Source of the DNA: Chiloscyllium plagiosum
Taxonomy: Eukaryota
Assembly (NCBI RefSeq): GCF_004010195.1
Contig: NC_057718.1
Coordinates: 3,260,092 to 3,324,091 of the forward strand
DNA length: 64,000 nt
Direction: 5' to 3'
Below, piece after piece: positions 3,831-61,200 of this stretch. A model generated the notes under the pieces. The model worked only from the letters and a program-made list of their open reading frames with translations. It ran no database searches and had not been told where the DNA came from. Made by a program: the position numbers and the translations under genes. The first letter of the stretch is position 1; the number at the start of each line of letters is the position of its first letter.

Positions 3831-4035
3831 GTGCAAATGTCCCAGTTTTTCTCCAGTCTCTGAGCATTTGTGTCACGGAGAGTCACACTGCCTGGTTACA
3901 GTGCACAATGAGGAATGCCATAGTGACACAGCTTCATTCTGACAATCACAAATGTGCAGCCCAGTGACACTGGGTTTTATTACTGCTCAGTCTGGGGAAG
4001 GATCTATGGGAGAGGAAGTCAGCTCACTGTAAACA
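3831..4035 (+). pseudogene. Internally deleted Ig V-set (VJ-type) exon, paralog of the minus-strand receptor V exons
   Basis: ttttgtag acceptor, then GANVPVFLQSLSICVTESHTAWLQCTMRNAIVT fused out of frame to SFILTITNVQPSDTGFYYCSVWGRIYGRGSQLTVN, then gtaatt donor; about 137 bp of the domain core is missing. Confidence 0.9.
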
Positions 4036-6799: not shown

Positions 6800-7310
6800 T
6801 GGCTTGGCTGTCACTCTAGGTCTCTGCCCAGCTGTCCCTCTGGGTCTCAGCCTGGCTGTCTCTCTAGGACTCTGTCCGGCCGAGCTCTGGGTCTCAGCCT
6901 GGCTGTCCCTCTGGGTCTCAGCCTGACTGTCTGTCTGGGTCTCAGCCTGACTGTCTCTCTGGGTCTCGACCTGGCTGTCCCTCTGGGTCTCGGCTTGGCT
7001 GTCCCTCTGGGTCTCGGCCTGGCTGTCCCTCTGGGTCTCGGCCTGGCTGTCCCTCTGGGTCTCGGCCTGGCTGTCCTTCTGGGTCTCGATCTGATTGTCT
7101 CTCTAGGTCTCTGTCTACCCGAGCTCTGAGTCTCGGTCTGGCTGTCCCTCTGGGACCGACTTGGCTGTTGCTGTGGAGCTTGGCCCGGCCTGGCTGTCCC
7201 TCTGTGTCTCAGTCTGGCTGTCCCTCTGGGTCTCAGTCTGACTGTCCCTCTGGGACCTGGCCTGGCTGTTGCTCCAGGTCTCAGTCTGGCCATCCCTCTG
7301 GATCTCACCT
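6800..7310. repeat. Minisatellite, ~24-bp unit (ggtctcggcctggctgtccctctg)
   Basis: Directly visible tandem array; produces repetitive spurious ORFs. Confidence 0.9.
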
Positions 7311-9222: not shown

Positions 9223-10319
9223 ACAGTCATTGTTTTGTGTGTGTGTATATGATTATATATATATATATATATATATCACTGATCCCTGTGGAACCCCACT
9301 GGGTCACCAGCCTGAGAAAGAATCCTGATTCCCTCTTATGTTTCCTGTCCATGAGGAGGAATTTCTTCTCCCTGATGAAGTGAATCTGTGGCATTCTTTA
9401 CTGCAGAGGGCTGTTGATGCTGGGTCATGAAGCATCTTCAAGTTTGAGAGACATATTTTTAATCATTAACAGAATCAATGGTTATGGGGAAAGGGCGGGA
9501 AAGTGGAAATTGGGATTATCAGATCAACGTGATCTCTTTCAATGATGGAGCAGATTTAAGGGGCTGAATGGCTTAATCGTCCTCCTTTGTCTTCTGGTCT
9601 TAAGGTCCATTTGAGGCATTTAACAGGAGACTGAGTGATTATTTGAACAGAAAGAATGTGCTGAATTGCTGATGCTACTGTTTGAACATCAAAATCTCTC
9701 AGGTCAATCCTCCCAGGGATTGGTGCCGGTCAAACTAGCTTCCTGGAATCTGTCCCAAATCCCTCATGACTGTCCCTTGGATTGGTCCATTCATTTGGCA
9801 AATTTAGTCAGGCTGTGACCCCACACAATCAGATCTGGTAAACAGTTCAACCTGAGTCCCATCACTGATGAGTCTGCTTTTATCCACCCCAGGCATGCAC
9901 CTCCCAGGATGTGAAAGTGGATAACATAAGGAAATTAAAAACGAGTTCAGGAAGATTGTTCAGGATACTTTGAGTAACATTGCGCAGAGATTAAAAATGA
10001 GAGCTTTGTTAGATTCATTCAACGCCACATCATTGCCCAGTGCACCTTAAAAAAGAAACACATTCTGAAATGTCTGTGTGGGTGTCATGGTGGGTTTCAA
10101 ATCATCGAACCAGGTTTATGTTGGTGTTTCCATCTGCAGGATAACAGGAGATGGGAATGGGGGAGATCTGCCTATTGGATGAAGCTGCAACTCAGTGTGG
10201 GACAGTGCACACTGACTCTTTCATTGTCCGGTTGCAGAGGTTGCGAGGAACTATCTCTTAGTGCAGTGTGGGCCATTTGATCCACATCATAAAACTTTTC
10301 TTTAAACATCCAGAAAGTG

Positions 10320-12860
10320 GGGACTCCAAATGCTGGAGGTCAGAGTTGAAAAGAGTGGTGCTGGAAAAGCACAGATAGTCAGGCACTGTCTGAGGAGCAG
10401 GAGAATCAATGTTTTGTGCATGAGCTTTTCATCAGGAATGAGGCTTGTAGCCCAAGGGGGCTGAGAGATAAATGGGAGGGAGTGGGGCAGGGAGGGATGG
10501 TAGTTGGGAATGTGATAGGTAGATGAAGGTGGGGATGAAGGTGATTGGTCAGAGAAGAGGGTGGAGTGGATAGGTGGGAAATGTAACAAACAAGTAGGAC
10601 TGTTCAAGGGGGTGGTGCTGAATTGGAAGGTTTGGACTGGGATAAGGTGGGGAGAGGGGAAATGAGAAAATTGATGAAACCTGCATTGATCCCATGTGGT
10701 TGGAGTGTCCCAAGGTGGAAAATGAGGTGTTCTTCCTCCAGGTATCGGGTGGTTACGGTTTGGCGGTGGAGGAGGCCCATGACTTGCATGTCCTTGGCGG
10801 ATTGGGAGGGAGAGTTAAAGTATTTGGCCAAATGGCGGTGGGGTTGTTTAGTGCATGTGTACCAGAGATGTTCTCTGAAATGTTCTGCAAGTAGGTGTCC
10901 TGTTTCCCCACTGTCGAGGAGATCACATTGGGAGCAGTAGATGTAGTTGATGACATGTGTGGAAGCACAGGTAAATCTCTGTCAGATGTGGAAGGATCCT
11001 GGATTCTTTGGGGCCTTGGACGGAGGTGTGTGGGGAGGTGGAGATTTTGCACTTCTTGTGGTGGCAGGGCAAGACGGCGGGAGTGTAAGGTGGTTTGGAA
11101 GGCATGTGGATCTGACAAGGGAGTCACGAATGGAATGGTCTCTCTGGAATGCAGATGGGGTGGGGAGGGAAATATATCCCTGGTGGTGGGGTCTGTTTGT
11201 AGTTGGCGGAAATGGCAGAAGATAATGTGATGTATCCGGAGTTTAGAAGAATGGCAGGTGAGGATTAGGGGTGGGGGTTTCTGTTCTTGTTGCATTGGGG
11301 AGGGGTGGGGTTCAAGGGCGGGGGTGTGGGGAGTGAAGGAGATATGCGTTAGAGGGCATCATCCACTATGTGGGAGGGAAATTGTGGTTGTTGATGAAGG
11401 AAACCATCTAGAATGTTCTATGGTGGAATTGGTCATCCTGGGAGCAGATGCAGTGGAGGCAGAGGAATTAGGAATAAGGGATAGTATTTTTTCAAGAGAC
11501 AAATTCTCAAGAGGTGTAGTCTGGGTAGCTGTGGGAGTCGGTGGGTTTGTAGTGGATGTTCGTGTGGAGTTGGTCACTGGAAATGGAGATGGAGAGGTCC
11601 AGTAAGGGGAGGGAGGTGTCCAAGATGGTCCAGGTGAACTTGACATCGGGATGGAAGATTCAGGGAAGTTGATGAATGCTCAGCCTCCTCATGGGAGCAC
11701 AAGGTGGTGCCGATACAGTCGTTGATGTAGCGGAGGAAAATGTGGGGAATGGTGCCAGTGTAGCTGCGGAAGATGGACTGTTCCACGTAGCCAACGAAGA
11801 GGCAGGCATAACTGGAGCCCATGCAGGTGCCAATGGCTACCCCCTTTCTCTGGAGGATGTGGGAAGATTCAAAGGAGAAACTATTGAGGGTGAGGATCAG
11901 TTCAACCAATCGATGAATGTCAGTAGAAGAGTACTAGTTGGGTTGGTGTGGGAGGAAGTAACAGAGGGCTTGGAGGCCTTCGTCATGGCGAATGGATGTA
12001 TACAGGGACTGGATGTCCATGGTGAAGATGAGGCTTTGAGGGCCTGGGAAATGAAAGCCATGAAGGAGGTGGAGAGCGTAGGTGGTGTCCCAAATGTAGG
12101 TGGAGGATTCCTGGACCAAGGGGACTGGACGGTGTCAAGGTATGCAGAGATCTGTTCAGTGGGGCAGGACCAGGCTGAGGCAATGGGTCAACTGGGGCAG
12201 TGGTGTAGAGGTGAGTGCACCAACCTACCACAACGCCTCCTTCTCTGCTGGTTTGATAGTGAGATTGAGGTTGGAGCAGAGGGAGTGAAGGGATGCACGT
12301 TGCGAGGGTGAGAGGTTGGAGTGAGTGAGGTGAGCAGACAGGTCGAGGAGGTGAATGTCACGGCGGCAGTTGGAAACGAAGAGATTGAGGGCAGGTAAGA
12401 GACCAGCATGGAGTGTCGAGGTGAGTGGGGTGTGTTGGTGTTGGGTGAGGGGGTCCTTGGAGGGTGGGTGGATGTCTTGGTGGAAAACGTAAGCCTGGAG
12501 GCAGAGGCAGTGGAAGAAGTGTTTGATGTCACAACGCATGTCGTATTCATTGATCTGGGAGTGTAGAGAATGAAGGTAAGGACTTTCTTGAGGACTGATT
12601 GTTCATCCTCAGTGAGGGGGCAGTCTGGGAGGATGGAAGAACATGGCAATGATGAGAGCTCCGACCTTGTGTGGGGCTGGAGCTGTGAGTGTGGGCTGAG
12701 ACTGTCTTTTGAATGCGTGTGGTTAAGGCATCATGGGTGATGTCACCAACAGAAGTGATGCTAAGAGATGGAAATGTGTTGCTGGAGAAGCGCAGCAGGT
12801 CAGGCAGCATCTAGGGAACAGGAGAATCGACATTTCGGGCATTAGCCCTTCTTCCTGAAG
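10320..12860 (-). mobile_element. Near full-length degenerate Penelope-like element (RT + GIY-YIG), pLTR sequence at both ends
   Basis: Frameshifted ORFs: LIFTMDIQSLYTSI, KGVAIGTCMGSSYACLFVGYVE, FLRYINDC, HLGTLQPHGIN. Confidence 0.9.
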
Positions 12861-14472: not shown

Positions 14473-15919
14473 AACAAACAGCAGTGATAAATGAGTGATT
14501 TTCAGGTTGTAACTGGTAAAGTCTACCTTTCACTTGTTCATGGATATTGGGCATTAATGGCTAGCCAGCATTTATTGGCCATTCCAAAGTGCCCAGAGAG
14601 GAGACATACGTTAATCAAATTAAACTGTGCTTCTGGAGTCACATTAGGCCAGATAGGGTAAGAATCAGAGATTGTCACAGGGTCAGTGCTGAGGTCTCAA
14701 GTATTTACAATTTCTATCAATGAGTGTGCAAAATCTGGGAATAGTGCCCCGCAGTCAGCATCTGATAATCCTTATGTTCCAGGGCCCAGGTATTGCACAG
14801 AAGGATTGATTCTGTCATTTAGGTTTCAGGAGTTTTTTTAGGGCCTACAAGATAAAAATGAAAACACTATTAGTTTCAAAAAATTAATTTTTCAATAAAT
14901 GCAGCAACAAAAGATTACCACAGGTTTATCTCTTACCAGCCGGTGGGGAATATGTGTACCCCAGAGACAATGTCATTCCAGGCTGCAGTTGGTCTTAACA
15001 CCTTGGGGCTTTGAAGGGAAATTTGGGAAAGTGTGTGTGTCTCAAACATGACCGATAATGGCCTGTGATCACACTGCACTCACTGCCCACTGTCAGTTTA
15101 TGCCACCACCAGGGCAACTAGAGATGGTCAATAAAAGCTGGTGTAGATAATCATACACACATCACCAGAATTATTACAATAAACTCAGGGTCTTGATGAG
15201 TGAAGATTTATTTTTTATTCATTCATGGATGTGGATGTCACTGGTTAGACCAGCATTCACTACCCATTCCCGAATTGCCCCTTGAACTGACTGTCTTGTT
15301 AATGCCATTTCAGAGGGTTGTTTCAAGTCAATCACATTGATGTGGGTCTGGAGTCACATATGGAGCAGCCCAGTTATAACTGACAGGTTTTCCTCCCTAA
15401 GACATATGTTCATTAACTGGGAAGTTATTGATGACCATCGACTGGGTGTCAATGGTCACCATGAGGCTGAATTTTTAATTCAACTTCATTGGTTGTTACG
15501 TTCAGTCTCACAGTCAGTGGGTCAGGGGAGCTGTATGAAGCATGGAGGACTCAATAGACAATAGGTGCAGGAGTAGTCCATTCTGCCCTTCGAGCCTACA
15601 CCACCATTCATTATGATCATGGCTGATCATCCTCAATCAGTATCCTGTTCCTGCCTTATTTCCATAACCCTTGATTCCACTATCCTTGAGAGCTCTATCC
15701 AACTCTCCAGTTCCAAAAACGCACAACCCAGATGGCCTCCTTCTTCAAGGACCGCAATTTCCCCCCCGACGTGGTCGACGATGCCCTCCACCGCATCTCT
15801 TCCACTTCCCGCTCCTCCGCCCTTGAGCCCCGCTCCTCCAACCGCCACCAGGACAGAACCCCACTCGTCCTCACCTACCACCCCACCAATCTCCATGTAC
15901 AGCGCATCATCCACCGTCA

Positions 15920-16424
15920 NNNNNNNNNNNNNNNNNNNNNNNNNNNNNNNNNNNNNNNNNNNNNNNNNNNNNNNNNNNNNNNNNNNNNNNNNNNNNNNNN
16001 NNNNNNNNNNNNNNNNNNNNNNNNNNNNNNNNNNNNNNNNNNNNNNNNNNNNNNNNNNNNNNNNNNNNNNNNNNNNNNNNNNNNNNNNNNNNNNNNNNNN
16101 NNNNNNNNNNNNNNNNNNNNNNNNNNNNNNNNNNNNNNNNNNNNNNNNNNNNNNNNNNNNNNNNNNNNNNNNNNNNNNNNNNNNNNNNNNNNNNNNNNNN
16201 NNNNNNNNNNNNNNNNNNNNNNNNNNNNNNNNNNNNNNNNNNNNNNNNNNNNNNNNNNNNNNNNNNNNNNNNNNNNNNNNNNNNNNNNNNNNNNNNNNNN
16301 NNNNNNNNNNNNNNNNNNNNNNNNNNNNNNNNNNNNNNNNNNNNNNNNNNNNNNNNNNNNNNNNNNNNNNNNNNNNNNNNNNNNNNNNNNNNNNNNNNNN
16401 NNNNNNNNNNNNNNNNNNNNNNNN
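15920..16424. other. Assembly gap (N run)
   Basis: Ns. Confidence 1.
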
Positions 16425-18043: not shown

Positions 18044-18086
18044 CTTTAAGCTCACTGTAAATAGAGCGATCCCATTGCTGCAATGG
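18044..18086 (-). CDS. Receptor cytoplasmic exon C4: PLQQWDRSIYSELK (second half of the ITAM)
   Basis: Strong acceptor tttctctttttcctgttag, donor G|gtatgt, phase 0 to 1, 43 bp, open frame containing YSEL. Confidence 0.85.
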
Positions 18087-19288
18087 CTAACAGGAAAAAG
18101 AGAAATATTAAAAACTGTGATCCATAACATAGACACAATGATGGCTTGTCCAGAATTATTTCACATTTTAACAATATTTCCTGCTTATGGGCAACAGGGA
18201 TTTCTCTTCCTGGAACCAGATCCATGTTAGCAGTCTCCTTCATTCATTCGTGTCAGCTCAGTTGAAAAACATTTGCTTTTGAGACTCGAGAGTTTGGATT
18301 GAAAGTGGAGTCCTGAGATGTGATTGTGCCACCCAGGCTGCTCCCTCAGTGCAGTACAGAGGCAGGGCAGCACTGTCAGCAGGATAGGCTTCTCAATGAG
18401 ATGTCAACATGAAACCCTATCTTCTTGAGCAGGAAAGCAATAATCTTTTTGATAGAAACTACTTTCCTCAAAGGGTTGTTAATCTTTGGAATTCTCTCTC
18501 TGCAAAAGAATTGACAACGTTCCAATACTGACAGCATTTTACATTGAACTGGACAGAACTTTGTTTCTCTGAGAATTTCCAGGATATGAGGAGCAGCTGG
18601 GAAAGTGGTAATAGGGCAGATTATTCACCAGGATTGTATTGAATGGTGGAGCAGCTTGAAGAAGCTGTCAGCTGTACATTTGCTCCTATTTCTTATGTTC
18701 TTATATTCGAAAGCAGCATTGCTCTCCCAGTGACCTTGTTGTATTTAAATCAGTTCCTCTTTTTCTGGATATCAGTGGCCACACTTCAAAGGCATTTCAC
18801 TCATTGTAAAGGCTGCCCAGACATGCTGAGGTTGTGAATGGAGTGATATAAATGGAAAAACATTTTCTTACTAAGAATTGTCGAATACAGTGATGAGCAC
18901 AGCTGACTCCTGAGGTTGGCAGTGACTGAGGAGACCAGGGATTGGGTATGAGGGAAGAAGGGACAGCTGAGAATCAGTGGGACTGAGTGGCAGAAGATCA
19001 GACTTGAACTTGGAGGGTCCAGGAGGGTTCAGTGTCTGGTGGTCTGACCCTGGGATTGGAAATCAATGAGTCAGAGAGTGGAGACAGGAGGATCTCAGTA
19101 ATTGAGTTGGGAACGTGGCATGGTGGACACTCTGGTTTGCTTGGCACTGAGCCCATTCCCAATAATGGTGATTGGTGTATAGAAATGTCAGTCAGATGAG
19201 GGGACCAATGGAAACTCAGAAAGGTGGCTCTTTGGGAATAGGGTGAATGTTGTAAAGCCAGCTGTTAATTGCAGTCCTAGATATTTAC

Positions 19289-19330
19289 CATGTAGGTTGA
19301 GTCAGAATCTGCTGGAGAATCCTTCACATT
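19289..19330 (-). CDS. Receptor cytoplasmic exon C3: NVKDSPADSDSTYM (first half of the ITAM)
   Basis: Acceptor ttgtttccttcttattacag, donor ATG|gtaaat, phase 0 to 0, 42 bp. Confidence 0.85.
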
Positions 19331-20974: not shown

Positions 20975-21250
20975 GTGTGAATCAGTGTGAATCAGTCAGG
21001 TAGCTGTTGTAAATGTGATTCATTCAGGGATCTGCTGTCAGTGTGAATCAGTCAGGTAGCTGTTGTAAATGTGATTCATTCAGGGATCTGCTATCAGTGT
21101 GAATCAGTCAGGGATCTGCTGTCAGTGTGAATCAGTTAGGGAGTTGCTGTCAGTGTGAATCAGTTAGGGAGTTGCTGTCAGTGTGAATCACTCAGGGAGC
21201 TGCTGTCAGTGTGAATCAGTCAGGGAGCTGCTGTCAGTGTGAATCAGTTT
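20975..21250. repeat. Minisatellite, ~28-bp unit (gtcagtgtgaatcagtcagggagctgct)
   Basis: Directly visible tandem array inside a receptor intron. Confidence 0.9.
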
Positions 21251-21804: not shown

Positions 21805-21878
21805 CTGCCTGTATCCTGTCAAAGGAGGGATTCTGTCAGCTCCAGGGAGACACTGGTAACCAGCTGCTGTCATTGAGT
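21805..21878 (-). CDS. Receptor cytoplasmic exon C2: (D)SMTAAGYQCLPGADRIPPLTGYRQ
   Basis: Acceptor tttgtctcacag, donor CAG|gtgagc, phase 1 to 0, 74 bp; only this frame is open, and it matches the flanking exon phases. Confidence 0.75.
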
Positions 21879-22084
21879 CTGTGAGACAAATAATCACATG
21901 TTATATGTAGGCAGCTGGGATGTTGTTGAGAGCATTTCCCTATAAAGACCACATCTTTATAATTGTCTTTATTGTGAATTGGGGAACAAAATCAGAAAAG
22001 GATATTGCTTTAAATGAAGGAAACTGTAGAAGGAGATGGAAAAGACTGGTACCTGGCTTTCTTGAAGAGTGTAGAGTTATAAAA

Positions 22085-24070
22085 GCACAGCTGGTCAGAC
22101 AGCAGCCGAGGAGCAGGAGAATTGACATTTCTGGCATAAGCCTTTAATCAGGAATGAGGCTTGTGGGCAAAGGGGGTTGAGAGATAAATAGGAGGGGAGT
22201 GGGGTTGGGGAGAAGGGAGCTGGGAATGCAACAGGTAGGTGAAGGTGGTAGTGCAAGTGATAGTTTGGAGAGGAGGGTGCATTAGATAGGTGGGATGGAA
22301 GATGGACAGGTAGGACCATTCAAGATGGTGATGTCAAGTTGGAAGGATTGGACTAGGATAAGGTTGGAGGAGGGGAAATGGTGAAATCCATATTGATCCT
22401 CTGTGGTTGTGGGATCCCAAGGTGGAAGAAGAGGCATTCTTCCTCCAGGCGCTGGGTATTTCGAGTTTGATGATGGAGGAGGCCAAGAACTGCATTTAGT
22501 TCACAGAGTGGAACGGGGTGTTGAAGTGTTTAGCCACAGAGCAGTACGGTTGGTTGGTGTGGGTATCCCAGAAATGTTCTGCAAATTGGTGTCCTGTCTC
22601 CCCAATGTAGAAGAGATTACATCCACTGCAATGGATGCATTAGCTGACATTTGTGGAAATACGAGTAAAGTTCTGTCCTGTGTGGAAGGATCCTTTGGGT
22701 TTTGGGTGGAGGTGAGGGGGTTTTGTGGGAATCATGGACCTGACAAGGGAGTCACGGAAGGAATGTCTCTCCAAAATGCAGATAGTGGTGGGGAAAAAGA
22801 TATATCCCTGGTCATGGGGTCTGTTTGTCGGTGGCAAAAATGGTGGGGAATAATGTGGTGTATCCGGAGATTGGTCGGGTGGAAGGTGAGGATCGGGGGG
22901 CGGGGGTTTGTCCTTGTTGCAATTGGAGGGGTGGGGGTTCAAGGACAGAGGTGAGGGAGGTGGAAGAAATGTGCTGGAGGGCATCATCGACGATGTGAGA
23001 GGGGAAGCTTTGGTCTTTGAAGAGGGAGGCCATCTGGATGGCTACTGGTTGGGTCGGTGTGAGAGGAAGAAACAGAGGGCTTGGAGGCCTTCATCATGAC
23101 AGATTGGTGTGTACAGGGACTGGATGTCATGGTGAAGATAAGGGATTGGGGGCAGGGAAATGAAAATCATGGAGGAAGTGGAGGGCGTGGGTGCTGTCCC
23201 GAACGGAGGTGGGAATTTCCTGGCCGAAGGGGGACAGGACAGTTTCAAGGTATGCAGAGATAAGTTCAGTGGGACAGGAGCAGGCTGAGACAATAAGTTG
23301 ACTGGGGCAGTCATGTTTGTGAATTTTGAGTATGAGATAAAATTGGGCAGTGCGGGTTTAACAGGCAATGAGATCGGAGGCTGTGGATGGAGAATCCCCA
23401 GAGGTGATGAGGATGTGCATGTTCGGGGAAATGATGGTTTGGTGATGGGAGGTGAGGTCATCAAGTGGGCAGTAGGAACAGGTGCCCGTGAGTTGGCACT
23501 TGGCTTCAGCCATGTAGAGGTTGGTGCGTCAAACTACCCCATGTCAGTAAGTTTGATGGTGAGCTTGAGGTTGGAGTGGTGGCAGTGGAGGGCTGCACGT
23601 TGCAAGGGTGAGTGGTTGGAGTGGGTGATGGGAGAGCTGTCAATGTCCAGGGTGGGGTGGGAGCTAGGACCTGGTGTACAGCTGGAACTGGGAGTGGGAG
23701 GTAGAGACTGTACTAGAATGGGGCATGGTCATGTGATCGAAGATGATGTCACCCACAGAAGTAACGCTAACCTTGGGGGTGAAGTGTGTGGAAGTGCTGC
23801 CTGTGGGAACCGTGGGGACAGAAGTGGCGTCACACGTGATGTAGGCAATGTTGTCAGCGGTGTTCAGGTGGGAGCAGATGTGGCTAGGGTGGCAGCAGTA
23901 ATGGGTGCGGACGTGACGTGTTGGTTGGAGCTCGCGTTGGTTTCATCTGTGGTGGATCTTGTTGCGGTCACGGAGGAGGTTGTCTGGCTGGCAATCTCAG
24001 AAACAGCATAGTCGGCAGTGGATACTCTCTGTGGGGCGGTGTAGGCGGAAGTGATGTCATCGATCGCTGT
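22085..24070 (-). mobile_element. Degenerate Penelope-like element (minus copy of an inverted pair)
   Basis: DIQSLYTPICHDEGLQAL and MASLFKDQSFPSHIVDDAL; pLTR at 22085-22380. Confidence 0.8.
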
Positions 24071-24074
24071 GGTG

Positions 24075-25755
24075 GTGGTGGCTGCTCCTGCCCGCCCGAG
24101 CATATCTGCATACCGTCCTGTCCCACTTAATCCAGGAAAATGCCATGTATGTTGGGAACACCACCCATGCACTCCACCTCCTTCGTTTCCCCAGCTCCAA
24201 TGCCTTATCTGCACCATGCTATCCAGTCCTTGTGCACACCTATCTGCCATGAAGAAGGCTTCAAGCCCTCTGTTTCTTCTTCTCATGTTGACCAACCAAT
24301 ACCCTTACACCAGTACCTTCATTGCCTAGCTGAATTGGTCCTGGTTCTCAACAACTTCTCCTTCCAATCCTCTCATTTTCTCCAGACCAAAGGGGTAGCC
24401 ATGGGCACCCACATGAAACCCAGATCAATGCCTGCTTTTTCATTGGCTACGTGGAACAGTCCATCTTCAAGAGCTAAACCAGCATCATTCCCCACCTTTT
24501 CTTCCACTACATTCATGACTGTATCGGGGCCACATCATGGTCCCATCAGGAGGTTGAAAAGTTCATCGATTTCACTAAGTCCTTCCACCCTGAACTCAAG
24601 GTCACCGGGACCATCTCAGACATCTCTCTCCCTTTCCTGGACCTCTCCATCTCTATTTCTGGTGACTGACACAACACATATATTCACTACAAACCCACCA
24701 ACTCCCACAGCTACCTGAATGACTCATCACCTTCCTCAGAGACCAGAATTTCGTCTCCCACATGGTCATGAAGCCCTGCAATGCATCTCCTCCACTTTCT
24801 CCCTTCTATCCTTGAACTCCACCCCTCCAATCACAACAATAACAGAACCCACCTGGTCCTCACCTTCCACACCACCAACCTCTGGATACACCACATCATC
24901 CTCCGCCACTTCCACCACTTACAAACAGACCCACCAGAGATATATTTCCCTCCCCATCACTATCTGCATTTCGAAGAGACCATTCTCTGTACAACTCCCT
25001 TGTTAGGTCCACGGCCTACACCAATCGACCCTCCCCTCCCTGCAACTTCCCCTACCATCTCAAGAATGCAAAACCTGTGCCCACTCCTTGCCCCTCACCT
25101 CTTTCCAAGGCCCAGAAGGATCCTTCCATATCTGACAGAGATTTGCCTGTACTTGCAAGCACATCATCTATTTCATCCGTTGCACTCAATGTGGTCTTCT
25201 CTACTTCATGATGACAGGAGGCCAACTTGCAGATCATTCAGAGAACAGCTCTGGGACACCCGCACTGACCAATCCCACCAAAGGACATGCAGGTTCTGGG
25301 CCTCCTCCATTGCCAAAACTTAATTACCTGACACCTGGAGGAAGAACGCATTGGGATCCTCCAACCACACAGAATCAGTGTGGATTTCACCAGTATCTCC
25401 ATTTCCCCTCCCCCACCTTATCCCAGTCTCAACGTTCCAACTCAGCACCACTATTTTGAATGGTCCTACCTGTCTATCTTCCTTCCCATCTATCTGCTCC
25501 ATTCTCCTCTCCAGCCTGTTACCTTCATGCCCCCACTTTCATCTATCTATTGCATTCCCAGCTACCTTCCCCCCAAACTCACCCCGCTCCCATTTATCTC
25601 TCAGCCCCCCTGACCATAAGCCTCATTCCTGATGAAGGGCTTATGTATGAAATGTCGACTCTCCTACTCCTCGGATGCTGCCTGACCTGCTGTGCTTTTC
25701 CAGCACCACACTCTTTGACTCTGATCTCAAGCATCTGTAGTCCTCAATTTCTCCC
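24075..25755 (+). mobile_element. Degenerate Penelope-like element (plus copy of an inverted pair)
   Basis: LNNFSFQSSHFLQTKGVAMGT and LVLTFHTTNLWIHHIILRHF; pLTR at 25620-25755. Confidence 0.85.
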
Positions 25756-26328
25756 ATCTCACTTTCTGTCCCACCATCTGGCTTCAGAATGCATGAATAT
25801 TCTGTGATTTAATTTGATCAAGCAGAGCCTAATCAAGTCGAGTCCATATGGCTTCATGAAAGGAAAATCGTGTCTGACTAAATCATTCCAGATTTTTACA
25901 TGAAGTCCCACCAGAATGGATTGACAGAACTAACAATGTGTTGAAGTTGGATTTTCAAAAGATATTCAATAAAGAATGGTTCTGAATGGGGTATGACAGA
26001 TGTAAAAACATCAGTCTCTGTTGGCTGGTGGGCTACAGGAGTCTGTTTCTGTGTCTGAAACTCCAAGCATTTTCATGGCCATTCTTTACAGCATTGTTAT
26101 CCTGAGGGGAAGGTTCAAGCTGCAGCTAAAAGCCCAGGGGGATACTACCACCTTCATTCTGTTGGCTGTGGGTTCACCACCTTTCATGGTCAATTGTGTT
26201 CATCATCCAACTGACCTGCTCTAACCATTAGCTTATTAATTATGTCAGAAATCTGACTGTAAAAGGGAAATTTGGAACAGAGAGATCCTGGCCAAATATT
26301 GCAGAAATGATGGAATTAGTTTGCTTAC

Positions 26329-26372
26329 CATTTACATTTTCATACACAGCATTCTGATCTTCAACAGGGCTC
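26329..26372 (-). CDS. Receptor cytoplasmic exon C1: (G)SPVEDQNAVYENVN
   Basis: Acceptor tttatttag, donor G|gtaagc, phase 2 to 1, 44 bp; matches the phase-2 end of the TM exon; YENV motif. Confidence 0.8.
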
Positions 26373-28154: not shown

Positions 28155-28305
28155 CCTTGTGTGGAGTCCCTTACTGATGAGCACGGCTTTTGTTTCCAAA
28201 GGAAATATGTGAGCAGGACAATGCAGATCAAGACAGCGAAGCCCAGAATGGTGCCAATGATTAAAATGGGATCTGAGGTCCAGGGAATACCATTGGACGA
28301 TTCTG
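28155..28305 (-). CDS. Receptor stalk/transmembrane exon: (A)ESSNGIPWTSDPILIIGTILGFAVLICIVLLTYFLWKQKPCSSVRDSTQG
   Basis: Acceptor tattttacag, donor GG|gtaaat, phase 1 to 2, 151 bp; about 23 hydrophobic residues followed by the KQK stop-transfer motif. Confidence 0.9.
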
Positions 28306-28845: not shown

Positions 28846-29191
28846 CAGTTACTTTGACTGGCTCCCTGCTCCATAGATGTAGCTCCACACACTGCAGCTG
28901 TACACAGCAGTATCATTGAGAGTCACATTCACAAGGTTCAGAATGTAATTGTTCCTGCTGACATTCCTGGAAAGCTCAACATAATTGGGAAAACCCTGGG
29001 CCTTGGTGAGGGTGCCATTCACAAAGTGGCTTATCATCCACTCCCTGTTGCTGCCAAGTCATTGGCAGTGCCAGTGGACATCAGTGTCAATCACACTGGC
29101 ATTGTACATGGCACACTGGAACTCGACAGTTTCACCCTCTTCTACCGAGCGACCATTGAATCCTGAATGAGGACTGGATCAGTCAATGGGT
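28846..29191 (-). pseudogene. Disabled membrane-proximal V exon (V4)
   Basis: DPLTDPVLIQDSMV / 1-bp deletion / SVEEGETVEFQCAMYNASVIDTDVHWHCQ*LGSNREWMISHF...DTAVYSCSVWSYIYGAGSQ / 1-bp deletion / KVT; TGA at 29059-29061; splice sites aacag and G|gtaagt retained; 346 bp. Confidence 0.9.
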
Positions 29192-33120: not shown

Positions 33121-33439
33121 AAGGGCACGTAGCTCGACACATACCTGTGTTGGATGGGGTTGGGGGTGGGGGCCGGTCTGGATGGGGTTGGGAGTGGTGT
33201 GGGGGCAGGGCTCAATGGAGTTGGGGTGAGGGCAGGCCGAGGGGGCATGGAGAATGGGGTTTGGGAGCCGGTACGCTGGACGGTGTTGGGGATGTGGGTG
33301 GGGCGGGGCAGGATGGGATTATGGGCAGGGGACAGTGTTGGACAGGATTGGGGGCGGTTTTGGGGAGGGGTCTCATGCACTGTGTGCTGCTGCAGTATCC
33401 TGAATGGGGAGCAGACTTTAAAAACTCTTAGCCCCAGTG

Positions 33440-36701: not shown

Positions 36702-37046
36702 TGGTGATATTGAGCTGGCTTCCTGTCCCATAGATCCTTCCCCAGACTGAGCAGTAATAGACCCCAGTGTCACTAGGCTGCACACTTTTTATGGTCAGAA
36801 TGAAACTGTTACTAGAGGAGTCTCTGGAAGATTGGAATCGCTCTGTGAATCCTGGGTACTGTTGTGTGGAGCCACTTCTTGGATGTGTTAAAACCGGCTC
36901 CATAATTTGCTTTTGGGACAGTCTGTACCAGTGAACATTGGTGTGTGTCACTGCAGCATTCCTCATGGTGCACTGTAACTGGGCAGTGTGATCCTTGATG
37001 ATACTTTCCAGGCTCGGTGACTGGAGAAGGACTGGACCAGTGTTAC
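36702..37046 (-). CDS. Receptor V exon V2 (Ig V-set, germline J-like strand IYGTGSQLNIT)
   Basis: Acceptor ttttttcttcaaag, donor A|gtaagt, phase 1 to 1, 345 bp open: NTGPVLLQSPSLESIIKDHTAQLQC...VHWYRL...DTGVYYCSVWGRIYGTGSQLNIT. Confidence 0.95.
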
Positions 37047-49963: not shown

Positions 49964-50308
49964 TGTCTACAATGAGTTGGCTTCCACTTCCATAGATCCA
50001 TTCCCAGACTGAGCAGTAATAGACCCCAGTGTCATTGGGCTGCACGTCTGTGATGTTCAGAATGAAGCTGTTATTGGAGGAGTCTCTGAAAGGCTGGAAT
50101 CGCTTATTGAATTCTGGGCTCCATTGTGTGGATACATTTCCTGGATGTGTTAAAACCCACTCCATAATATGCTCTGGGGACAGCCGGTACCAGTGAACAT
50201 CAGTGTGTGTCACAGTGGTGTTCCTCATGGTGCACTGCAACTGGGCAGTCTGACCCTCGGTGACACGACCCAGGCTTGGAGACTGGAGAAGGACTGGACC
50301 ATTGGTAC
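49964..50308 (-). CDS. Receptor V exon V1 (Ig V-set, germline J-like strand IYGSGSQLIVD)
   Basis: Acceptor tttatctttaag, donor A|gtaagt, phase 1 to 1, 345 bp open: TNGPVLLQSPSLGRVTEGQTAQLQC...VHWYRL...DTGVYYCSVWEWIYGSGSQLIVD. Confidence 0.95.
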
Positions 50309-51161
50309 CTTAAAGATAAAGATAACAAAGCGTTTATTCCCACAAGACCAGATTCTCTGTACTGTCATATTGACAGGATCTGAAAGGGTGTTAAGAGTTT
50401 TCGGTGAAATATAGAGAACATGTTGTTATATTAATCCATGGAGCTGCATTTGTGACTGATTCATATCAAATAAAATCTGCCAACATAAGCAAAAATAATT
50501 AAATAAACAGAGTATGAAATAATATTTCTTAATTCTGTTGAAAATCTCATTGACATTTTGGACACGTCAATGTCTTCTGCAGCACAGTCAAAACCCACAT
50601 TCACTTCCATCTGGAAGGGCAAGGGCAGCAGATACATGGGAACTCCACCCCCTGCAAGATTCCATAATATGCTCTGGGGACAGCCGGTACCAGTGAACAT
50701 CAGTGTGTGTCACTGTGGTGTTCCTCATGGTGCACTGCAACTGGGCAGTCTGACCCTTGGTGACACGATCCAGGCTCGGAGACTGGAGAAGGACTGGACC
50801 ATTGGTACCTTTAAAGATAAAGATAACAAAGCGTTTATTCCCACAAGACCAGATTCTCTGTACTGTCATATTGAAAGGATCTGAAAGGATGTTAAGAGTT
50901 TTCAGTGAAATAGAGAGAACATGTTGTTATATTAATCCATGGAGCTGCATTTGTGACTGATTCATATCAAATAAAATCTGCCAACATAAGCAGAAATAAT
51001 TAAATAAACAGAGTATGAAATAATATTTCTTAATTCTGTTGAAAATCTCATTGACATTTTGGACACGTCAATGTCTTCTGCAGCACAGTCAAAACCCACA
51101 TTCACTTCCATCTGGAGGGGCAAGGGCAGCAGATACATGGGAACTCCACCCCCTGCAAGAT
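50161..51161. repeat. ~500-bp tandem duplication (50161-50660 / 50661-51161)
   Basis: Both units start tccataatatgctctgggga and end cctgcaagat; they differ by scattered substitutions. Confidence 0.92.
50661..50808 (-). pseudogene. Truncated 5' half of a V exon created by the tandem duplication
   Basis: Intact acceptor, then TNGPVLLQSPSLDRVTKGQTAQLQC...WYRLSPEHIME, then runs into repeat sequence. Confidence 0.9.
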
Positions 51162-51384
51162 CCCCTCCAAGTCACTCACCATTCTGACTTGAAAATATAT
51201 CACTGTTCATTCAGTGCCGCTGGGTCAAAATGCTGGAATTCTCTCCCTCAGAGCATTGTGGCTGTATGTGCAGGACATGGACTGCAGTGGGTCAGGAATG
51301 CAGCTCACCCCCAGCAATAGCAACAAGAATAATGATAGTGATAATGGTGATGGTGATGGTGATGATATCGGCAGAACATTTACA

Positions 51385-53150
51385 AATGTATAACATCAAT
51401 CAGCAGAGTCAGCATGGCATCACAAAGGATAAGTAATGACAGACCATTTTACTGGAACTCTTTGATGGGTTAAGAAGCAGGTTAAACAAAGGGGATCCAG
51501 TTGATGTAATGTGTTTGGATTTTCAAATCACTTTTGATAAGCACCACATATGAGGCTACTTCACAAGATGAGAGTCCTTGGTTTTGGAGGTAGTATGGAC
51601 AGAAGATTGGTGAAATAAACAATGACAGAGAGTTGGGATAAAGTAGTTCGGATCCAGTTGATGTAATGTGTTTGGATTTCCAAATCGCTTTTGATAAGCA
51701 CCACACATGAGGCTACTTCACAAGATGAGAGTCCTTGGTTTTGGAGGTAGTATGGACAGAAGATTGGTGAAATAAACAATGACAGAGAGTTGGGATAAAG
51801 TAGTTCATTTCACAGTGCCCACATATAATTTGTAGAGTGCCACAGGGCTCAGTGGGCCACAATTATTGACAATTGATATTAATGACTAGATGAGGAAAGT
51901 AAATTGACTGCAGCAAAGTTTGTGGATGGCACAAAAATAAATGGGAAGGCAAGTGGTGAGAATCACTCAAAGAGTCTACGCAGAGCTATAGACAGGTTCA
52001 GTGAGTGGGTACAATGTTGGCAGATGAAATGTATTGTGGGTAATACATTGTCTTGTACTTCAATAGGAAGAATATGATTTCTTTTCTTCATTCAAGATGT
52101 GAACATTGCGACAAAGCCAGCATTTATTACCCATCCATAATTGCTCAGATTGCAGTTAAGAATCGGCTCCTTTACTGTGAGTCTGGAGTCACATGTAGGT
52201 CAAACCAGTAAGGATGGCAGTAAATAATGTGGGTGTTCCCCATCAATCATTTCATGGTCATTATCAGATGTTTAATTCCACGTTTTTAAGGAATTAAAAT
52301 TCCAACATTTTCCATGAAGGGATTTGAATATGGAGTCCCAGAACATGCTCTAGGTCTCTAGATTAATAATCTAATGATGATCCAACTTGGCTATTGCCTC
52401 CCATGAGGGGAAAGACTGCTTGGCAGCCCAGCACAGAGGGATTGGTAGGGTTGGAGAGTGTGTATGAATTACCGAGAGCTAGCGTCCAAGATCAGCAGGG
52501 AGTAAGGAGGGAAGATGGAATGTTGGCCTTGATTTTAAAGGGAATGGAGGATAAAACTAGGGAGACTTTGTTATAATGATACAAGGCACTAGTTAGACCA
52601 GAGCTGGAATAACGTGGGCTGTTGTGGACTCCTTATCTGAGGAAAAATACACCTACATTAGAGGCAGTCCAGAGAAGGTTCACACGATTGATCTTGGATG
52701 TGGAGGGATATTCTTATGAAGAGATGGTGAGATCGTCAGGCCTGTGCTCATCTGGGTTTAGGAGAATGTGAGAAGAACTTCGTGAGACAGATAAGATATT
52801 GAAGAGAAGATACAGAGAGTAGTTTCCCCTTGTGGGAGAGTCTCAGAATCAACGATATGTTCTCAGAATATCGGGTCGCACATTTTGAACAGAGATTAAA
52901 GGAATTTCTTCTCTCAGAAGTTTGTGAATCTGTGGAATTCTTTCCCACAGAGGGTTGTCATGGCTGAGTCATTAAGGATATTTAAGGCTGAGATGAACAA
53001 AGATTTAATTAGTAATAGAGTCAAGGGTCATGGGGAAAAGGCAGGAAAATGGGTTTGAGGATTATCAGATCAGCCATGATCCTATGGAATAATGGAGCAG
53101 GCTAGATGGGCCATATGACCTACTTCCATTCCTGTATTTTACTGTCTTAT
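51385..53150 (+). mobile_element. Degenerate CR1 LINE with internal ~156-bp tandem duplication (51494-51806) and a SINE insertion
   Basis: CR1 RT-like DNA; duplicated gatccagttgatgtaatgtgtttggattt block. Confidence 0.7.
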
Positions 53151-58285: not shown

Positions 58286-61200
58286 AAACTGGTAGCAATA
58301 CAAGAACCCTCTGAGATGCTAGTCACTTATAACAAACCATGGGAGGGTGGGGTGGGGAGCAATGTGATGGAGGAGGATTTCCTGAAATGTATGAGGAATA
58401 GTTTCCTCAAACAAAATGTCGAGGAACTAACTAGAGAGCAAGCCATTGTAGACTGGATGTTGTGTAATGCGATAAAATTGATTAGCAACATTGTGGTGTA
58501 AGATCCTTGAGGGAAGAGTGACCATAACATGACATAATTCTTTATTAAGGTAGAGAGTGACATAATTAAATCTGAAACTAGAGCCCTGAACTTAAAGAAA
58601 GTTAACTTTGATGACATGAGACATACATTACCAAGGATAAGCTGGCCAAGGATACTTATTGGGCTGATGGTGGATAGGTAATGGCAGACAATAAAGATTA
58701 CGTGGATGAATTTCAACAATTGTATACCCCTGCCAGGTATAAGAGTAAAACAGAGAAGGTGATTCCAGGGCTAACACGGGAAATCACGAACTGTGTTAAG
58801 TCCAAAGGTGAGATATATAACTTCACCAGATAAAGCAGTAAACCTGAAGACTGGCAGAAATTTAAAATTCGGCAGAGGAGGACAAAGGTTTTAATTTGGA
58901 AAGGGAAAATAGAATATGAAGGTAAGCCTGCGGCAGACATAATTTCTGACTGTAAAAGCTTCTATAGATATGTGAACAGCAAAAGACTGGTGAGAGAAAT
59001 GTAGATCCCTTATTGTGAGAATCAGGTGAATTCAAAATGAGCAACAAAAAGATGGTGGACAAGTTAAACAAATATAAAAACAGAGGTTATTGGAAAAACT
59101 CAGCAGGTCTGGCAACATCTGAGCAGAGAATTGGGTCTGGTGATCCTTTCTCAGAACAGTTCTCACTGGACCTGAGCCTAAACTTTGATTTCTCTGCACA
59201 GATGCTGCCGGACCTGCTGAGCTTTTCCAGCAACTTCTGTTTTTGTTTCTGATTTGCAGCAGCTGGAGTTCTTTTTGTTTTTCTTTCTCAGTTGATCAAA
59301 TACTTTGAACCTTCCTTCAGGAAATGCTAAGAGACAGAGGGTCAAGAATGAAGGAGGAACTGAAGGAAATCCTTATTAGTCAGGAAATGGTGTTGGGAAA
59401 TTGATGGAATTAAAACTTGATAGGTCCCTAGGGCCTGATGCTTTGGATCCCAGAGTACTTAAGCAAGTGACCCTAAAAATAACAGATGCATTGTTGAAGA
59501 GTTCCAATAGAATGGACAGTAGCTAGTGTAATGTAATTTTACCTGGACCATCTCTGACTTCTCCCTCCCCTTCCTGGACCTCTCCTTTTCCATTAATGAC
59601 GACTGATTTGACACCGACATTTTTTACAAACCCAACAACTCCCACAGCTACCTGGATTACATCTCTTCCCACCCTACCTCTTGCAAAAATGCCATCCCGT
59701 ATTCCCAATTCCTCCGCCTCTGCCAGATCTGCTCCCAGAAGGGCCAGTTCCACCACAGAACACACCAGATGACCTCCTTCTTTAGAGACCTCAATTTCCC
59801 TTCCTATGTGGTTAAAGATGCCCTCCAATGCATCTCGTCCACATCCCGCACCTCCACCCTCAGACCTCACCCCTCCAACCGTAACAAGGACAGAACGCTT
59901 CTGGTGCACACCTTCCACCCTACCAACCTTCGCATAAACCAAATCATCCGCCAACATTTCCGCCACCTCCAAACAGACCCCTCCACCATCAAAGTTTTAC
60001 CTGCACATCCACCAATATCATTTATTGTATCAGTTGCTCCCGATGCGGTCTCCTCTACATTGGGGAGACTGTGCACCTCCTAGCAGAGCGCTTTAGGGAA
60101 CATCTCCAGGACACCCGCACCAATCAACCACACCGCCCTGTGGTCCAACATTTCAGCTCCCCCTCCCACTCTACTGAGGACATGGAGATCCTGGGTCTCC
60201 TTCACCGCCGCTCCCTCACCACCAGACTCCTGGAGGAAGAATGCCTCATCTTCCGCCTCGGAACACTTCAACCCCAGGACATTAATGTGGACTTCAACAG
60301 CTTCCTCATTTCCCCTTCCCCCACCTCACCCCAGTTCCAAACTTTCAGCTCAGCACTGCCCCCATGACTTGTCCTGACTTGTCCTACTTGCCTATCTTCT
60401 TTTCCACCTATCCAGTCCACCCTGCCCCCACAACCTATCACCTTCATCCCCTCCCCCACTCACCTATTGTATGAAGAGCTTTTGCCCGAAACGCCGATTT
60501 CACTGATCCTTGGATGCTGCCTGAACTGCTGTGCTCTTCCAGCACGACTAATCCAGAATCTGGTTTCCAGCATCTGCAGTCATTGTTTTTACCTAGTAGC
60601 TAATGTAACCCCATTCTTTAAAAAAGGAGGGAGAGAGAAAATGGGGAATTGTAGGCAGATTAGCCTGACATTAGTGGTGGGGAAAATGCTGGTGTTAGTC
60701 ATTAATCATATAATAACTAGGCATTTGGGAAGTGGTTACAAAATCGGTCTGAGTCAGCATGGACTCATTAAAGGGAAATCATGCTTGACAAATCTTCTGC
60801 ACTTTTTATTGAGGATGTGACCAATGGAGTGGATAAGGGTGAAGCAGTAAATGTTGTGTGTCTGGACTGTCAAACGATTCCGAAAAGATTCCAGACATGA
60901 GATTAGTCAGGAAAATTAAAGCCCATAGTATCGGAGGTAATGTATTTATATGGATAGTGAACTGATTGGCAGACAAGAAGCAGCGAATTGGAAGAAGCAG
61001 GTCCTTTTCTGAGTGGCATGCAGTGATGAGTGGGCTATGGCAAGGTTCAGTGTTGGGATGCCAACTGTTCTCGATATACATTAACGATTTGAACAAAGGA
61101 ACTGAATGCAATATCTCCGATTTTGCAGACGACGCTAAGCTGGGTGGCAGGGTGTGCTGTGAGGAGAATGCTAAGAGTTGACAGGGTAATTTGGACAGAC

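What the first reader, a model, noticed from the sequence alone, without database searches (positions are those of the whole stretch)
18044..19330. Canonical ITAM split by a phase-0 intron at the same position as in CD3/FcR-gamma/DAP12
Seen: the 42-bp exon ending ...DSDSTYM splices to the 43-bp exon PLQQWDRSIYSELK, giving D-x-x-YMPL-x7-YSEL. Known: ITAMs of the CD3 chains, FCER1G and TYROBP are typically interrupted by a phase-0 intron just after Y+1 of the first YxxL. Inference: the matching intron position supports the gene model independently and suggests the module came from an ancestral two-exon ITAM cassette. Both halves (STYMPL, SIYSEL) also fit the ITIM consensus S-x-Y-x-x-L, so dual or inhibitory signalling is possible.
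Basis: partly seen in the sequence, partly recalled or inferred. Interest (0 to 1): 0.75.

Follow-up and report, generated by a model that had tools for sequence, protein, structure and literature searches.

The report
Shark paired immune receptor with ITAM
The split signalling motif is real and its split is a known rule, but it sits in a little-studied shark and ray family of antibody-like surface receptors that come in activating and inhibitory pairs and appear to swap their signalling tails as blocks of exons.

Summary
Confirmed: two minus-strand exons (19330-19289, phase 0/0; 18086-18044, phase 0/1) form a canonical ITAM split after Y+1. That split is a published general feature of ITAMs, so it is not itself new. 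The exons belong to a bamboo-shark type I receptor: tandem germline-joined VJ domains, an uncharged TM and five tail exons. Relatives form a clustered family in sharks and rays, with ITAM or ITIM-like tails. In 6 of 6 species tested, the ITAM member's first V domain is closest to a same-species ITIM member, as in paired receptors. This gene is a chimera: TM and first tail exon come from an ITIM lineage, the other tail exons from an older ITAM lineage, joined at a phase-1 intron. Outside the family, the tail's closest relatives are chondrichthyan CEACAM-like tails, not CD3, FcR-gamma or DAP12. The membrane-proximal V exon is broken; skipping it keeps the frame, and a Hemiscyllium counterpart also lacks it. 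The ITAM junction was not seen in reads; signalling is inferred. Ten library searches found no description of the family.

The parts
50660..50808 (-). truncated duplicate of the 5' half of V exon 50308 (about 500-bp local duplication)
   Evidence: tblastn 96% over 49 aa, then breaks off
49964..50308 (-). VJ-type Ig V exon 'V50', phase 1/1
   Evidence: Pfam V-set E 8.6e-18; 100% identical to RefSeq P0024; 84% to the first domain of Hemiscyllium P0023
45809..45822 (-). short stop-bearing exon that fits the four C-terminal residues of RefSeq model P0024 (possible secreted form, or an annotation artefact)
   Evidence: only match to a pattern search on the minus strand
36702..37046 (-). VJ-type V exon 'V37', phase 1/1
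   Evidence: 90% to P0023
34589..34933 (-). VJ-type V exon 'V34', phase 1/1
   Evidence: model pLDDT 90, antibody-V fold TM about 0.9
28846..29191 (-). broken membrane-proximal V exon: 346 nt against 348 expected from paralogues, two 1-nt deletions and an in-frame TGA; splice sites intact
28155..28302 (-). stalk + uncharged TM exon, phase 1/2, of the ITIM-lineage type
26329..26372 (-). tail exon C1, phase 2/1; carries YENV (Grb2-type YxN) where ITIM-lineage genes have YATV/YTTV
21805..21878 (-). tail exon C2, 74 nt, phase 1/0; homologous to the YEN exon of the older ITAM lineage; that tyrosine is lost in this copy and two unconserved ones are gained
19289..19330 (-). tail exon C3, 42 nt, phase 0/0, ends after Y+1 of the ITAM
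18087..19288 (-). phase-0 GT-AG intron splitting the first YxxL
18044..18086 (-). tail exon C4, 43 nt, phase 0/1, rest of the ITAM; weak second acceptor 9 nt in (score 0.2 against 9.0)
14571..14844 (-). last exon C5 (phase 1; stop codon ends at 14819) and 3' UTR to AATAAA at 14576
   Evidence: a contig of run X8 lies on 14653-14843

Best explanation
The two exons encode the ITAM of an activating member of a clustered shark and ray family of paired immune receptors. Shown in the sequence: tandem single-exon VJ domains, an uncharged TM, a YxN motif and a canonical ITAM, in one open frame if the broken membrane-proximal V exon is skipped. Shown by comparison: family members carry either ITAM or ITIM-like tails on near-identical V domains, and this gene joins an ITIM-lineage TM and first tail exon to the older ITAM lineage's tail exons at a phase-1 intron. 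That tail resembles chondrichthyan CEACAM tails. Inferred from established ITAM biology: ligand clusters the receptor, a Src-family kinase phosphorylates both tyrosines, Syk/ZAP70 tandem SH2 domains bind, Grb2 binds YENV, and the cell is activated with no adaptor chain. Inferred by analogy with CEACAM3/CEACAM1: it counters an inhibitory twin that binds the same, probably microbial or polymorphic, ligand, and gene conversion keeps the ectodomains matched.
For: Open exon chain with consistent phases. The V-domain search gave 38 hits, all from sharks. Of 30 members examined, 11 have ITAM tails, 16 ITIM-like tails and 3 truncated tails, and 0 of 30 have a charged residue in the best TM window. D/E/N at Y-3 and a 7-residue spacer are kept in 21 of 21 family ITAMs from sharks and rays. 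Pairing: in 6 of 6 species with both types in the set, the ITAM member's N-terminal V is closest to a same-species ITIM member (97, 91, 93, 91, 86, 82%); 2 further shark species and 1 ray had no such partner in the set. The window's V37 and V34 are closest to ITIM-tailed P0023 (90%, 85%). Chimera: the TM-exon tree puts the window with 23 rows including all non-ITAM members, apart from the 7 older ITAM genes (100/100). The TM exon matches ITIM-lineage P0004/P0009/P0014/P0023 at 37-41 of 48 residues against 8-10 of 48 for the older ITAM genes, while C4 matches 8-11 of 14 against 2-4 of 14. Isoform P0054 places the ITIM lineage's phase-1 border at the same point. Skipping precedent: P0023, P0036, P0037 and P0058 join V directly to this TM type. 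All three lesions fall in one exon (P about 0.03 if scattered at random). A C4-to-C5 spliced contig is inferred in run X8 from depth arithmetic. A profile of 5 family tails only gave 10 hits among 1.84 billion proteins: 5 family, 5 CEACAM-like.
Against: The C3/C4 junction and the V34-to-TM junction were not observed in reads. The broken V exon keeps its splice sites, so inclusion would truncate the protein. No RefSeq protein with this copy's tail appeared, and RefSeq model P0024 stops after V50. C2 of this copy differs from paralogues P0005 and P0011 at 8 of 24 positions each, including loss of its conserved tyrosine. P0023, the closest ectodomain, has an ITIM tail, so an assembly chimera is not excluded. 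Relatives are annotation models, some visibly fused (P0056). Short tyrosine motifs match by chance (NDUFV3, E 0.036), and the tail tree is poorly resolved. No ligand, cell type or signalling was tested.
Confidence: 0.62

Rival explanations
1. The family is as described, but this copy is a decaying pseudogene; its ITAM is real but silent, and P0005 is the working gene.
For: Three lesions in the membrane-proximal V exon, which most same-TM-type paralogues keep; a truncated duplicate of V50; drift in C2; no annotated protein with this tail.
Against: No stop or frameshift in the other nine exons; C3 and C4 identical in protein to P0005 while TM and C2 differ (38 of 48, 16 of 24); Hemiscyllium P0023 has the same V50-V37-V34-TM order without that domain.
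Confidence: 0.25
2. The tail is inhibitory or switchable: SHP-1 binds the S-x-Y-x-x-L halves, or an acceptor 9 nt into C4 removes the first YxxL and leaves one tyrosine module.
For: The second tyrosine fits S-x-Y-x-x-L in 20 of 21 family ITAMs; Hemiscyllium isoform P0029 lacks the three residues after Y+1 that P0042 has; C4 here has a CAG at +9.
Against: The first tyrosine fits in only 4 of 21; the +9 acceptor scores 0.2 against 9.0; ITAM spacing is invariant; dedicated ITIM-like members exist.
Confidence: 0.12
3. The likeness to CEACAM tails is convergence on SH2-binding preferences, not a shared exon cassette.
For: The motif is short; chance hits occur; the second profile included 4 CEACAM tails, so searches are biased; the placing of chimaera CEACAM tails inside the family clade is odd.
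Against: The first profile held family tails only, yet all 5 non-family hits were CEACAM-like. The window ITAM shares a mean 7.9 of 20 non-consensus positions with 32 CEACAM-like tails against 1.6 in shuffles (maximum 2.3 of 2000), and the upstream YEN motif sits at a similar distance. The ectodomains share no significant similarity (under 30 bits).
Confidence: 0.25
4. The window is an assembly chimera of an ITIM gene's V exons and a neighbouring ITAM gene's 3' exons.
For: The closest ectodomain (P0023) has an ITIM tail; tandem cluster; three N gaps in the window.
Against: No N gap lies between V37 and C4 (gaps at 15920, 41542, 47437); the ITIM-type-TM plus ITAM-tail arrangement also exists in P0005, P0011, P0037 and P0058 from four genera.
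Confidence: 0.07

Closest known systems
CEACAM paired receptors (CEACAM1/CEACAM3; marsupial and Xenopus ITAM CEACAMs; PMC2832619, PMC5112662, passages read)
   Same: Own ITAM split by a phase-0 intron, YxN motif upstream, ITIM/ITAM pairs with matched ligand domains, tail-exon replacement that can keep the first tail exon; the tail sequence matches chondrichthyan CEACAM-like proteins.
NITRs of ray-finned fish (bioRxiv 2021.06.11.448072, passages read)
   Same: Clustered multigene family, single-exon V-J domains, inhibitory and activating forms, species-specific diversification.
   Different: No six-cysteine I domain (131 of 149 domains have 2 Cys, none more than 4); 2-7 V domains; activation by an own ITAM rather than a charged TM; J motif is (S/Y/F)GxG.
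ITAM adaptor chains CD3, TCR-zeta, CD79, FcR-gamma, DAP12 (PMC4536121, PMC4034164, passages read)
   Same: [quoted passage not shown]
   Different: No acidic TM residue; large ligand-type ectodomain; no significant sequence match of the tail.
Non-rearranging VJ genes UrIg, UrIg2, NKp30, PRARP (PMC12227049 abstract and Discussion part 1; PMC10751288 passages)
   Same: Germline-joined VJ exon with an antibody-V fold.
   Different: No C1 domains and no charged TM; multigene family with own tyrosine motifs. Direct sequence comparison with these genes was not done.
Skate MDIRs / CD300-pIgR-like receptors (PMC3031540, passages read)
   Same: Cartilaginous-fish multigene activating and inhibitory Ig receptors with modular V domains.
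   Different: Domains here are antigen-receptor-like VJ with two cysteines; MDIRs are described as CD300/TREM/pIgR-like. MDIR sequences were not compared directly.

Membership tests
Classical ITAM | D/E/N-x-x-YxxL/I-x6-8-YxxL/I | tested here: met
   (21 of 21 family members)
Classical ITAM | Two exons, border inside the first YxxL, phase 0 | tested here: met
   isoform borders in relatives
Classical ITAM | Same Y+1 position as in CD3, FcR-gamma and DAP12 genes | not testable with these tools
   no genomic DNA of those genes was available; PMC4536121 says only that the border splits the first module
Classical ITAM | Binds Syk/ZAP70 when doubly phosphorylated | not testable with these tools
   needs an experiment
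ITAM adaptor chains (CD3/CD79/FcR-gamma/DAP12) | Acidic residue in the TM | tested here: not met
   0 of 30 family TMs charged; window TM uncharged
ITAM adaptor chains (CD3/CD79/FcR-gamma/DAP12) | Sequence homology of the tail | tested here: not met
   none among 10 hits or 61 hits (only the top 8000 candidates scored); CD79a E 0.87
CEACAM | CEACAM-type N domain and IgC domains | tested here: not met
   family ectodomains score under 30 bits against CEACAM-like queries
CEACAM | YxN plus split-ITAM tail | tested here: met
CEACAM | Synteny with LIPE/BCL3 | not testable with these tools
   no genome held; no flanking gene identified in the window
NITR | Single-exon V with J-like GxG motif | tested here: met
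NITR | I domain with six conserved cysteines | tested here: not met
   at most 4 Cys in 149 domains matched by pattern
NITR | Activation through a charged TM | tested here: not met
Rearranging Ig/TCR or VJ-C1 genes | RSS beside V segments | tested here: not met
   one weak RSS-like match at 33384, none beside a V exon
Rearranging Ig/TCR or VJ-C1 genes | C1 domain | tested here: not met
   no C1-set match for P0005 and only E 0.09, under the cut-off, for P0048; no C1 exon among window candidates
MDIR/CD300-like | Direct homology to skate MDIR sequences | not tested
   MDIR proteins were not retrieved; none named among the hits
Paired receptors (functional class) | Clustered ITIM and ITAM members with matched ectodomains | tested here: met
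Paired receptors (functional class) | Shared ligand and opposite signalling | not testable with these tools
   needs an experiment

The most novel reading that the evidence does not exclude
An undescribed, elasmobranch-wide family of germline-joined multi-VJ paired receptors, filling the place that NITRs hold in bony fish. Its activating tail is a mobile YxN-ITAM exon cassette shared with chondrichthyan CEACAMs, grafted again in carpet sharks onto an inhibitory gene at a phase-1 intron, with the YxN site rebuilt in the captured exon. The intron inside the ITAM may also serve as a splice switch that turns it off. Bolder still, and less likely (about 0.08): a surviving model of a pre-RAG VJ receptor that carried its own ITAM.
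Probability: 0.4. Interest if true: 0.78.

Novelty: new variant of a known kind. Interest (0 to 1): 0.58.

Why it matters
The split ITAM alone is ordinary. The family matters because a review read here (PMC6795676, passages) names no NITRs in cartilaginous fish and expects more to be found; this gives concrete candidates for shark NK-cell or myeloid activating/inhibitory receptors built from antigen-receptor-like VJ domains. It also gives a traceable case of ITAM exon shuffling, within one family and apparently between two unrelated Ig families, which makes the old 'ITAM cassette' idea testable at DNA level in slowly evolving genomes.

Tried and rejected
Type II lectin reading of the ITAM: rejected once V and TM exons were found upstream. 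Leader exon: not found in the window; the leader and first V of P0024 have no near-identical match here, so they probably lie beyond 64000. Whole genome: none held, so synteny and paralogue DNA were out of reach. Sequencing runs: no RNA holder listed; of 4 runs laid, X6 gave depth only on repeat-like stretches and none on the exons, X7 gave nothing, and X5 covered introns like DNA; none of this is evidence on expression. The Pfam scan of 10 tails gave no ITAM-family match. PDB sequence and fold searches of the V domain returned mainly antibody V domains and cannot name the nearest natural family. The two atlas searches gave generic V-set clusters, with an NCR3-like cluster second at 0.94 for P0011 as a lead only. 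The first C2 anchoring test was off by one residue and was redone: 4-8 of 24 identical, so C2 homology rests on length, phase and motif as much as on identity. The tail tree could not order family and CEACAM tails. Earlier findings of the scan: none in 3 look-ups. No complex was predicted, as phosphotyrosine binding cannot be modelled with that tool.

Full report
Observation. The two exons are at the stated places on the minus strand, 42 and 43 nt, with strong acceptors and GT donors. Only phase 0 is open in the first, so the intron falls after Y+1 of a D-x-x-YxxL-x7-YxxL motif. A loose chance test found such a pair in 2 of 40 shuffles, so the context, not the motif, carries the weight.

The gene. 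Scans for exons and hydrophobic stretches gave V exons at 50308-49964, 37046-36702 and 34933-34589, a TM exon at 28302-28155 and tail exons at 26372-26329, 21878-21805, 19330-19289, 18086-18044 and 14844 onward. From V37 to the stop codon the phases are consistent and the frame is open. A fourth V exon (29191-28846) has two 1-nt deletions and a stop. It is flanked by phase-1 introns, so skipping it keeps the frame. No leader exon was found in the window. V50 is identical to a Chiloscyllium plagiosum RefSeq protein, which places the window in that species or a very close one. Each V is a single exon with both cysteines and a J-like GxG strand; no RSS lies beside one. The model has an antibody-V fold.

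The family. One V domain retrieved 38 proteins, all from sharks and all under generic names; within a species most lie on one long contig. Tail searches added ray members. Of 30 members examined, 11 carry an ITAM, 16 a three-tyrosine ITIM-like tail and 3 a truncated tail; none has a charged TM. In 21 of 21 family ITAMs the spacer is 7 and Y-3 is D, E or N. The border after Y+1 also shows in annotated relatives: P0029 lacks three residues after it that P0042 has, P0021 lacks the 14-residue exon before it, and P0069 and P0114 diverge there. These are models, not reads.

Pairing. Among 80 V domains from 27 proteins and the window, the N-terminal V of the ITAM member was closest to a same-species ITIM member in 6 of 6 species with both in the set (82-97%); Heterodontus, Heptranchias and Hemitrygon had no such partner in the set. 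This holds even between two Chiloscyllium species, the pattern expected from gene conversion, though conversion was not tested on DNA. The window's own V37 and V34 are closest to ITIM-tailed Hemiscyllium P0023, which has the same V50-V37-V34-TM order without the membrane-proximal domain.

Chimeric tail. Seven older ITAM genes (sevengill, sawshark, horn shark, carpet sharks) have a distinct TM; the window's TM groups instead with the ITIM lineages (100/100, on 49 columns, bootstrap not fully settled). C1 matches ITIM-lineage C1 at 7-11 of 14 residues, with YATV/YTTV changed to YETV in zebra and whale shark and YENV in bamboo sharks. C2 has the length and phases implied for the older lineage's YEN exon by TM-skipping isoform P0038, with 4-8 of 24 identities, and C3-C4 match that lineage. 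Isoform P0054 puts the ITIM lineage's next exon at the same phase-1 point. The simplest reading is a tail swap in that intron in carpet sharks, with the Grb2-type YxN site rebuilt in C1 as the C2 site decayed. PMC2832619 (passages) describes the same kind of replacement in opossum CEACAMs.

Where the cassette comes from. A profile of five family tails against 1.84 billion representatives gave 10 hits: 5 family and 5 CEACAM-like proteins of sawshark, horn shark, devil ray and elephant shark. A second profile, which included 4 CEACAM tails and is therefore biased, gave 61 hits: 25 family, 33 CEACAM-like by my blastp classing and 3 other; none was named CD3, CD79, FcR-gamma or DAP12, and only 8000 candidates were scored. 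The window ITAM shares 7.9 of 20 non-consensus positions with 32 of those 33 tails (one lacked the motif and was dropped) against 1.6 in shuffles. Against this: the hits were chosen by similarity, chance matches to such motifs occur, and the tail tree is unresolved.

Expression. No listed run is on record as an RNA holder. In run X8 (RNA by guess) a 236-nt contig of depth 6.53 lies on 14843-14653 from its 34th base and stops at the C5 acceptor; the bin holding C4 has depth 0.99, which equals 33 bases at that depth. I infer a C4-C5 spliced product of this gene or a close relative (6 differences in 191); the joint row was among those not shown. The C3/C4 junction was not covered.

Mechanism. Shown: architecture and conservation. 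Inferred from established ITAM biology (own knowledge): Src-family phosphorylation, Syk/ZAP70 and Grb2 recruitment, activation without an adaptor. Inferred by analogy with CEACAM pairs (PMC5112662, passages): counterbalance to an inhibitory twin. I put the family-level reading at about 0.85 and a working copy here at about 0.65-0.7. The dual-ITIM idea is weak for the first tyrosine (4 of 21) but open through the +9 acceptor.

What is known. The two-exon ITAM is stated as a rule in PMC4536121 (passages); the phase-0 split is shown for CEACAMs in PMC2832619, PMC5112662 and PMC2110893 (passages) and phase-0 tail introns for CD79a in PMC4034164 (passages). Also seen as passages: PMC6795676, PMC10751288, PMC3031540, PMC4079198, PMC13278318, PMC8455134 and bioRxiv 2021.06.11.448072; PMC12227049 as abstract and the first part of the Discussion. 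Ten searches listed no paper on this family, judged from titles and abstract starts. The library lacks most subscription journals, no supplements were read and figures are not held, so an earlier description may exist. The gene fails the NITR, CEACAM, adaptor-chain and VJ-C1 membership tests but works like a CEACAM-type paired receptor.

Verdict. The finding as written is true and ordinary; the family around it is a new variant of a known kind. Interest 0.58.

Noticed in passing
window 3833-4034 (+): V-exon remnant of the same family in the opposite orientation, with a large internal deletion; its 3' flank matches 50071-49390 at 81% over 693 nt.
   Followed up: partly
window 50309-51200 (-): Local duplication holding the 5' half of V50 (96% aa); a real tandem event or an assembly artefact.
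   Followed up: no
window 45822-45809 (-): Short stop exon that fits the end of RefSeq P0024; could give a secreted two-V decoy form.
   Followed up: partly
P0043, P0045, P0046, P0051, P0052, P0038, P0054: Annotated isoforms in three species skip the TM exon in frame and keep the tail, predicting soluble forms.
   Followed up: no
P0029 versus P0042 (Hemiscyllium): An alternative acceptor inside the split ITAM removes three residues and destroys the first YxxL.
   Followed up: partly
P0115 (Stegostoma, nectin-1-like) and P0116 (Erpetoichthys): Weak hits (E 0.15 and 3.8) with a similar YxN plus ITAM-like tail on other ectodomains; the cassette may be wider.
   Followed up: no
family V domains (149 matched): The CDR3-equivalent loop between the second Cys and GxG is 7 residues in all 149, so length is fixed while sequence varies.
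   Followed up: no
window 6801-7306, 20982-21248, 51493-51806: Tandem repeats of 24, 28 and 157 nt; the 24-nt array lies in a 234-codon open frame on the minus strand.
   Followed up: no
window 10300-12300, 22060-25760, 59500-60600 and others: Many mutually similar interspersed repeats in both orientations in the introns; not classified.
   Followed up: no
window 20344-20324 (-): A 21-nt candidate mini-exon whose acceptor and first eight bases resemble those of C2; may be chance.
   Followed up: no
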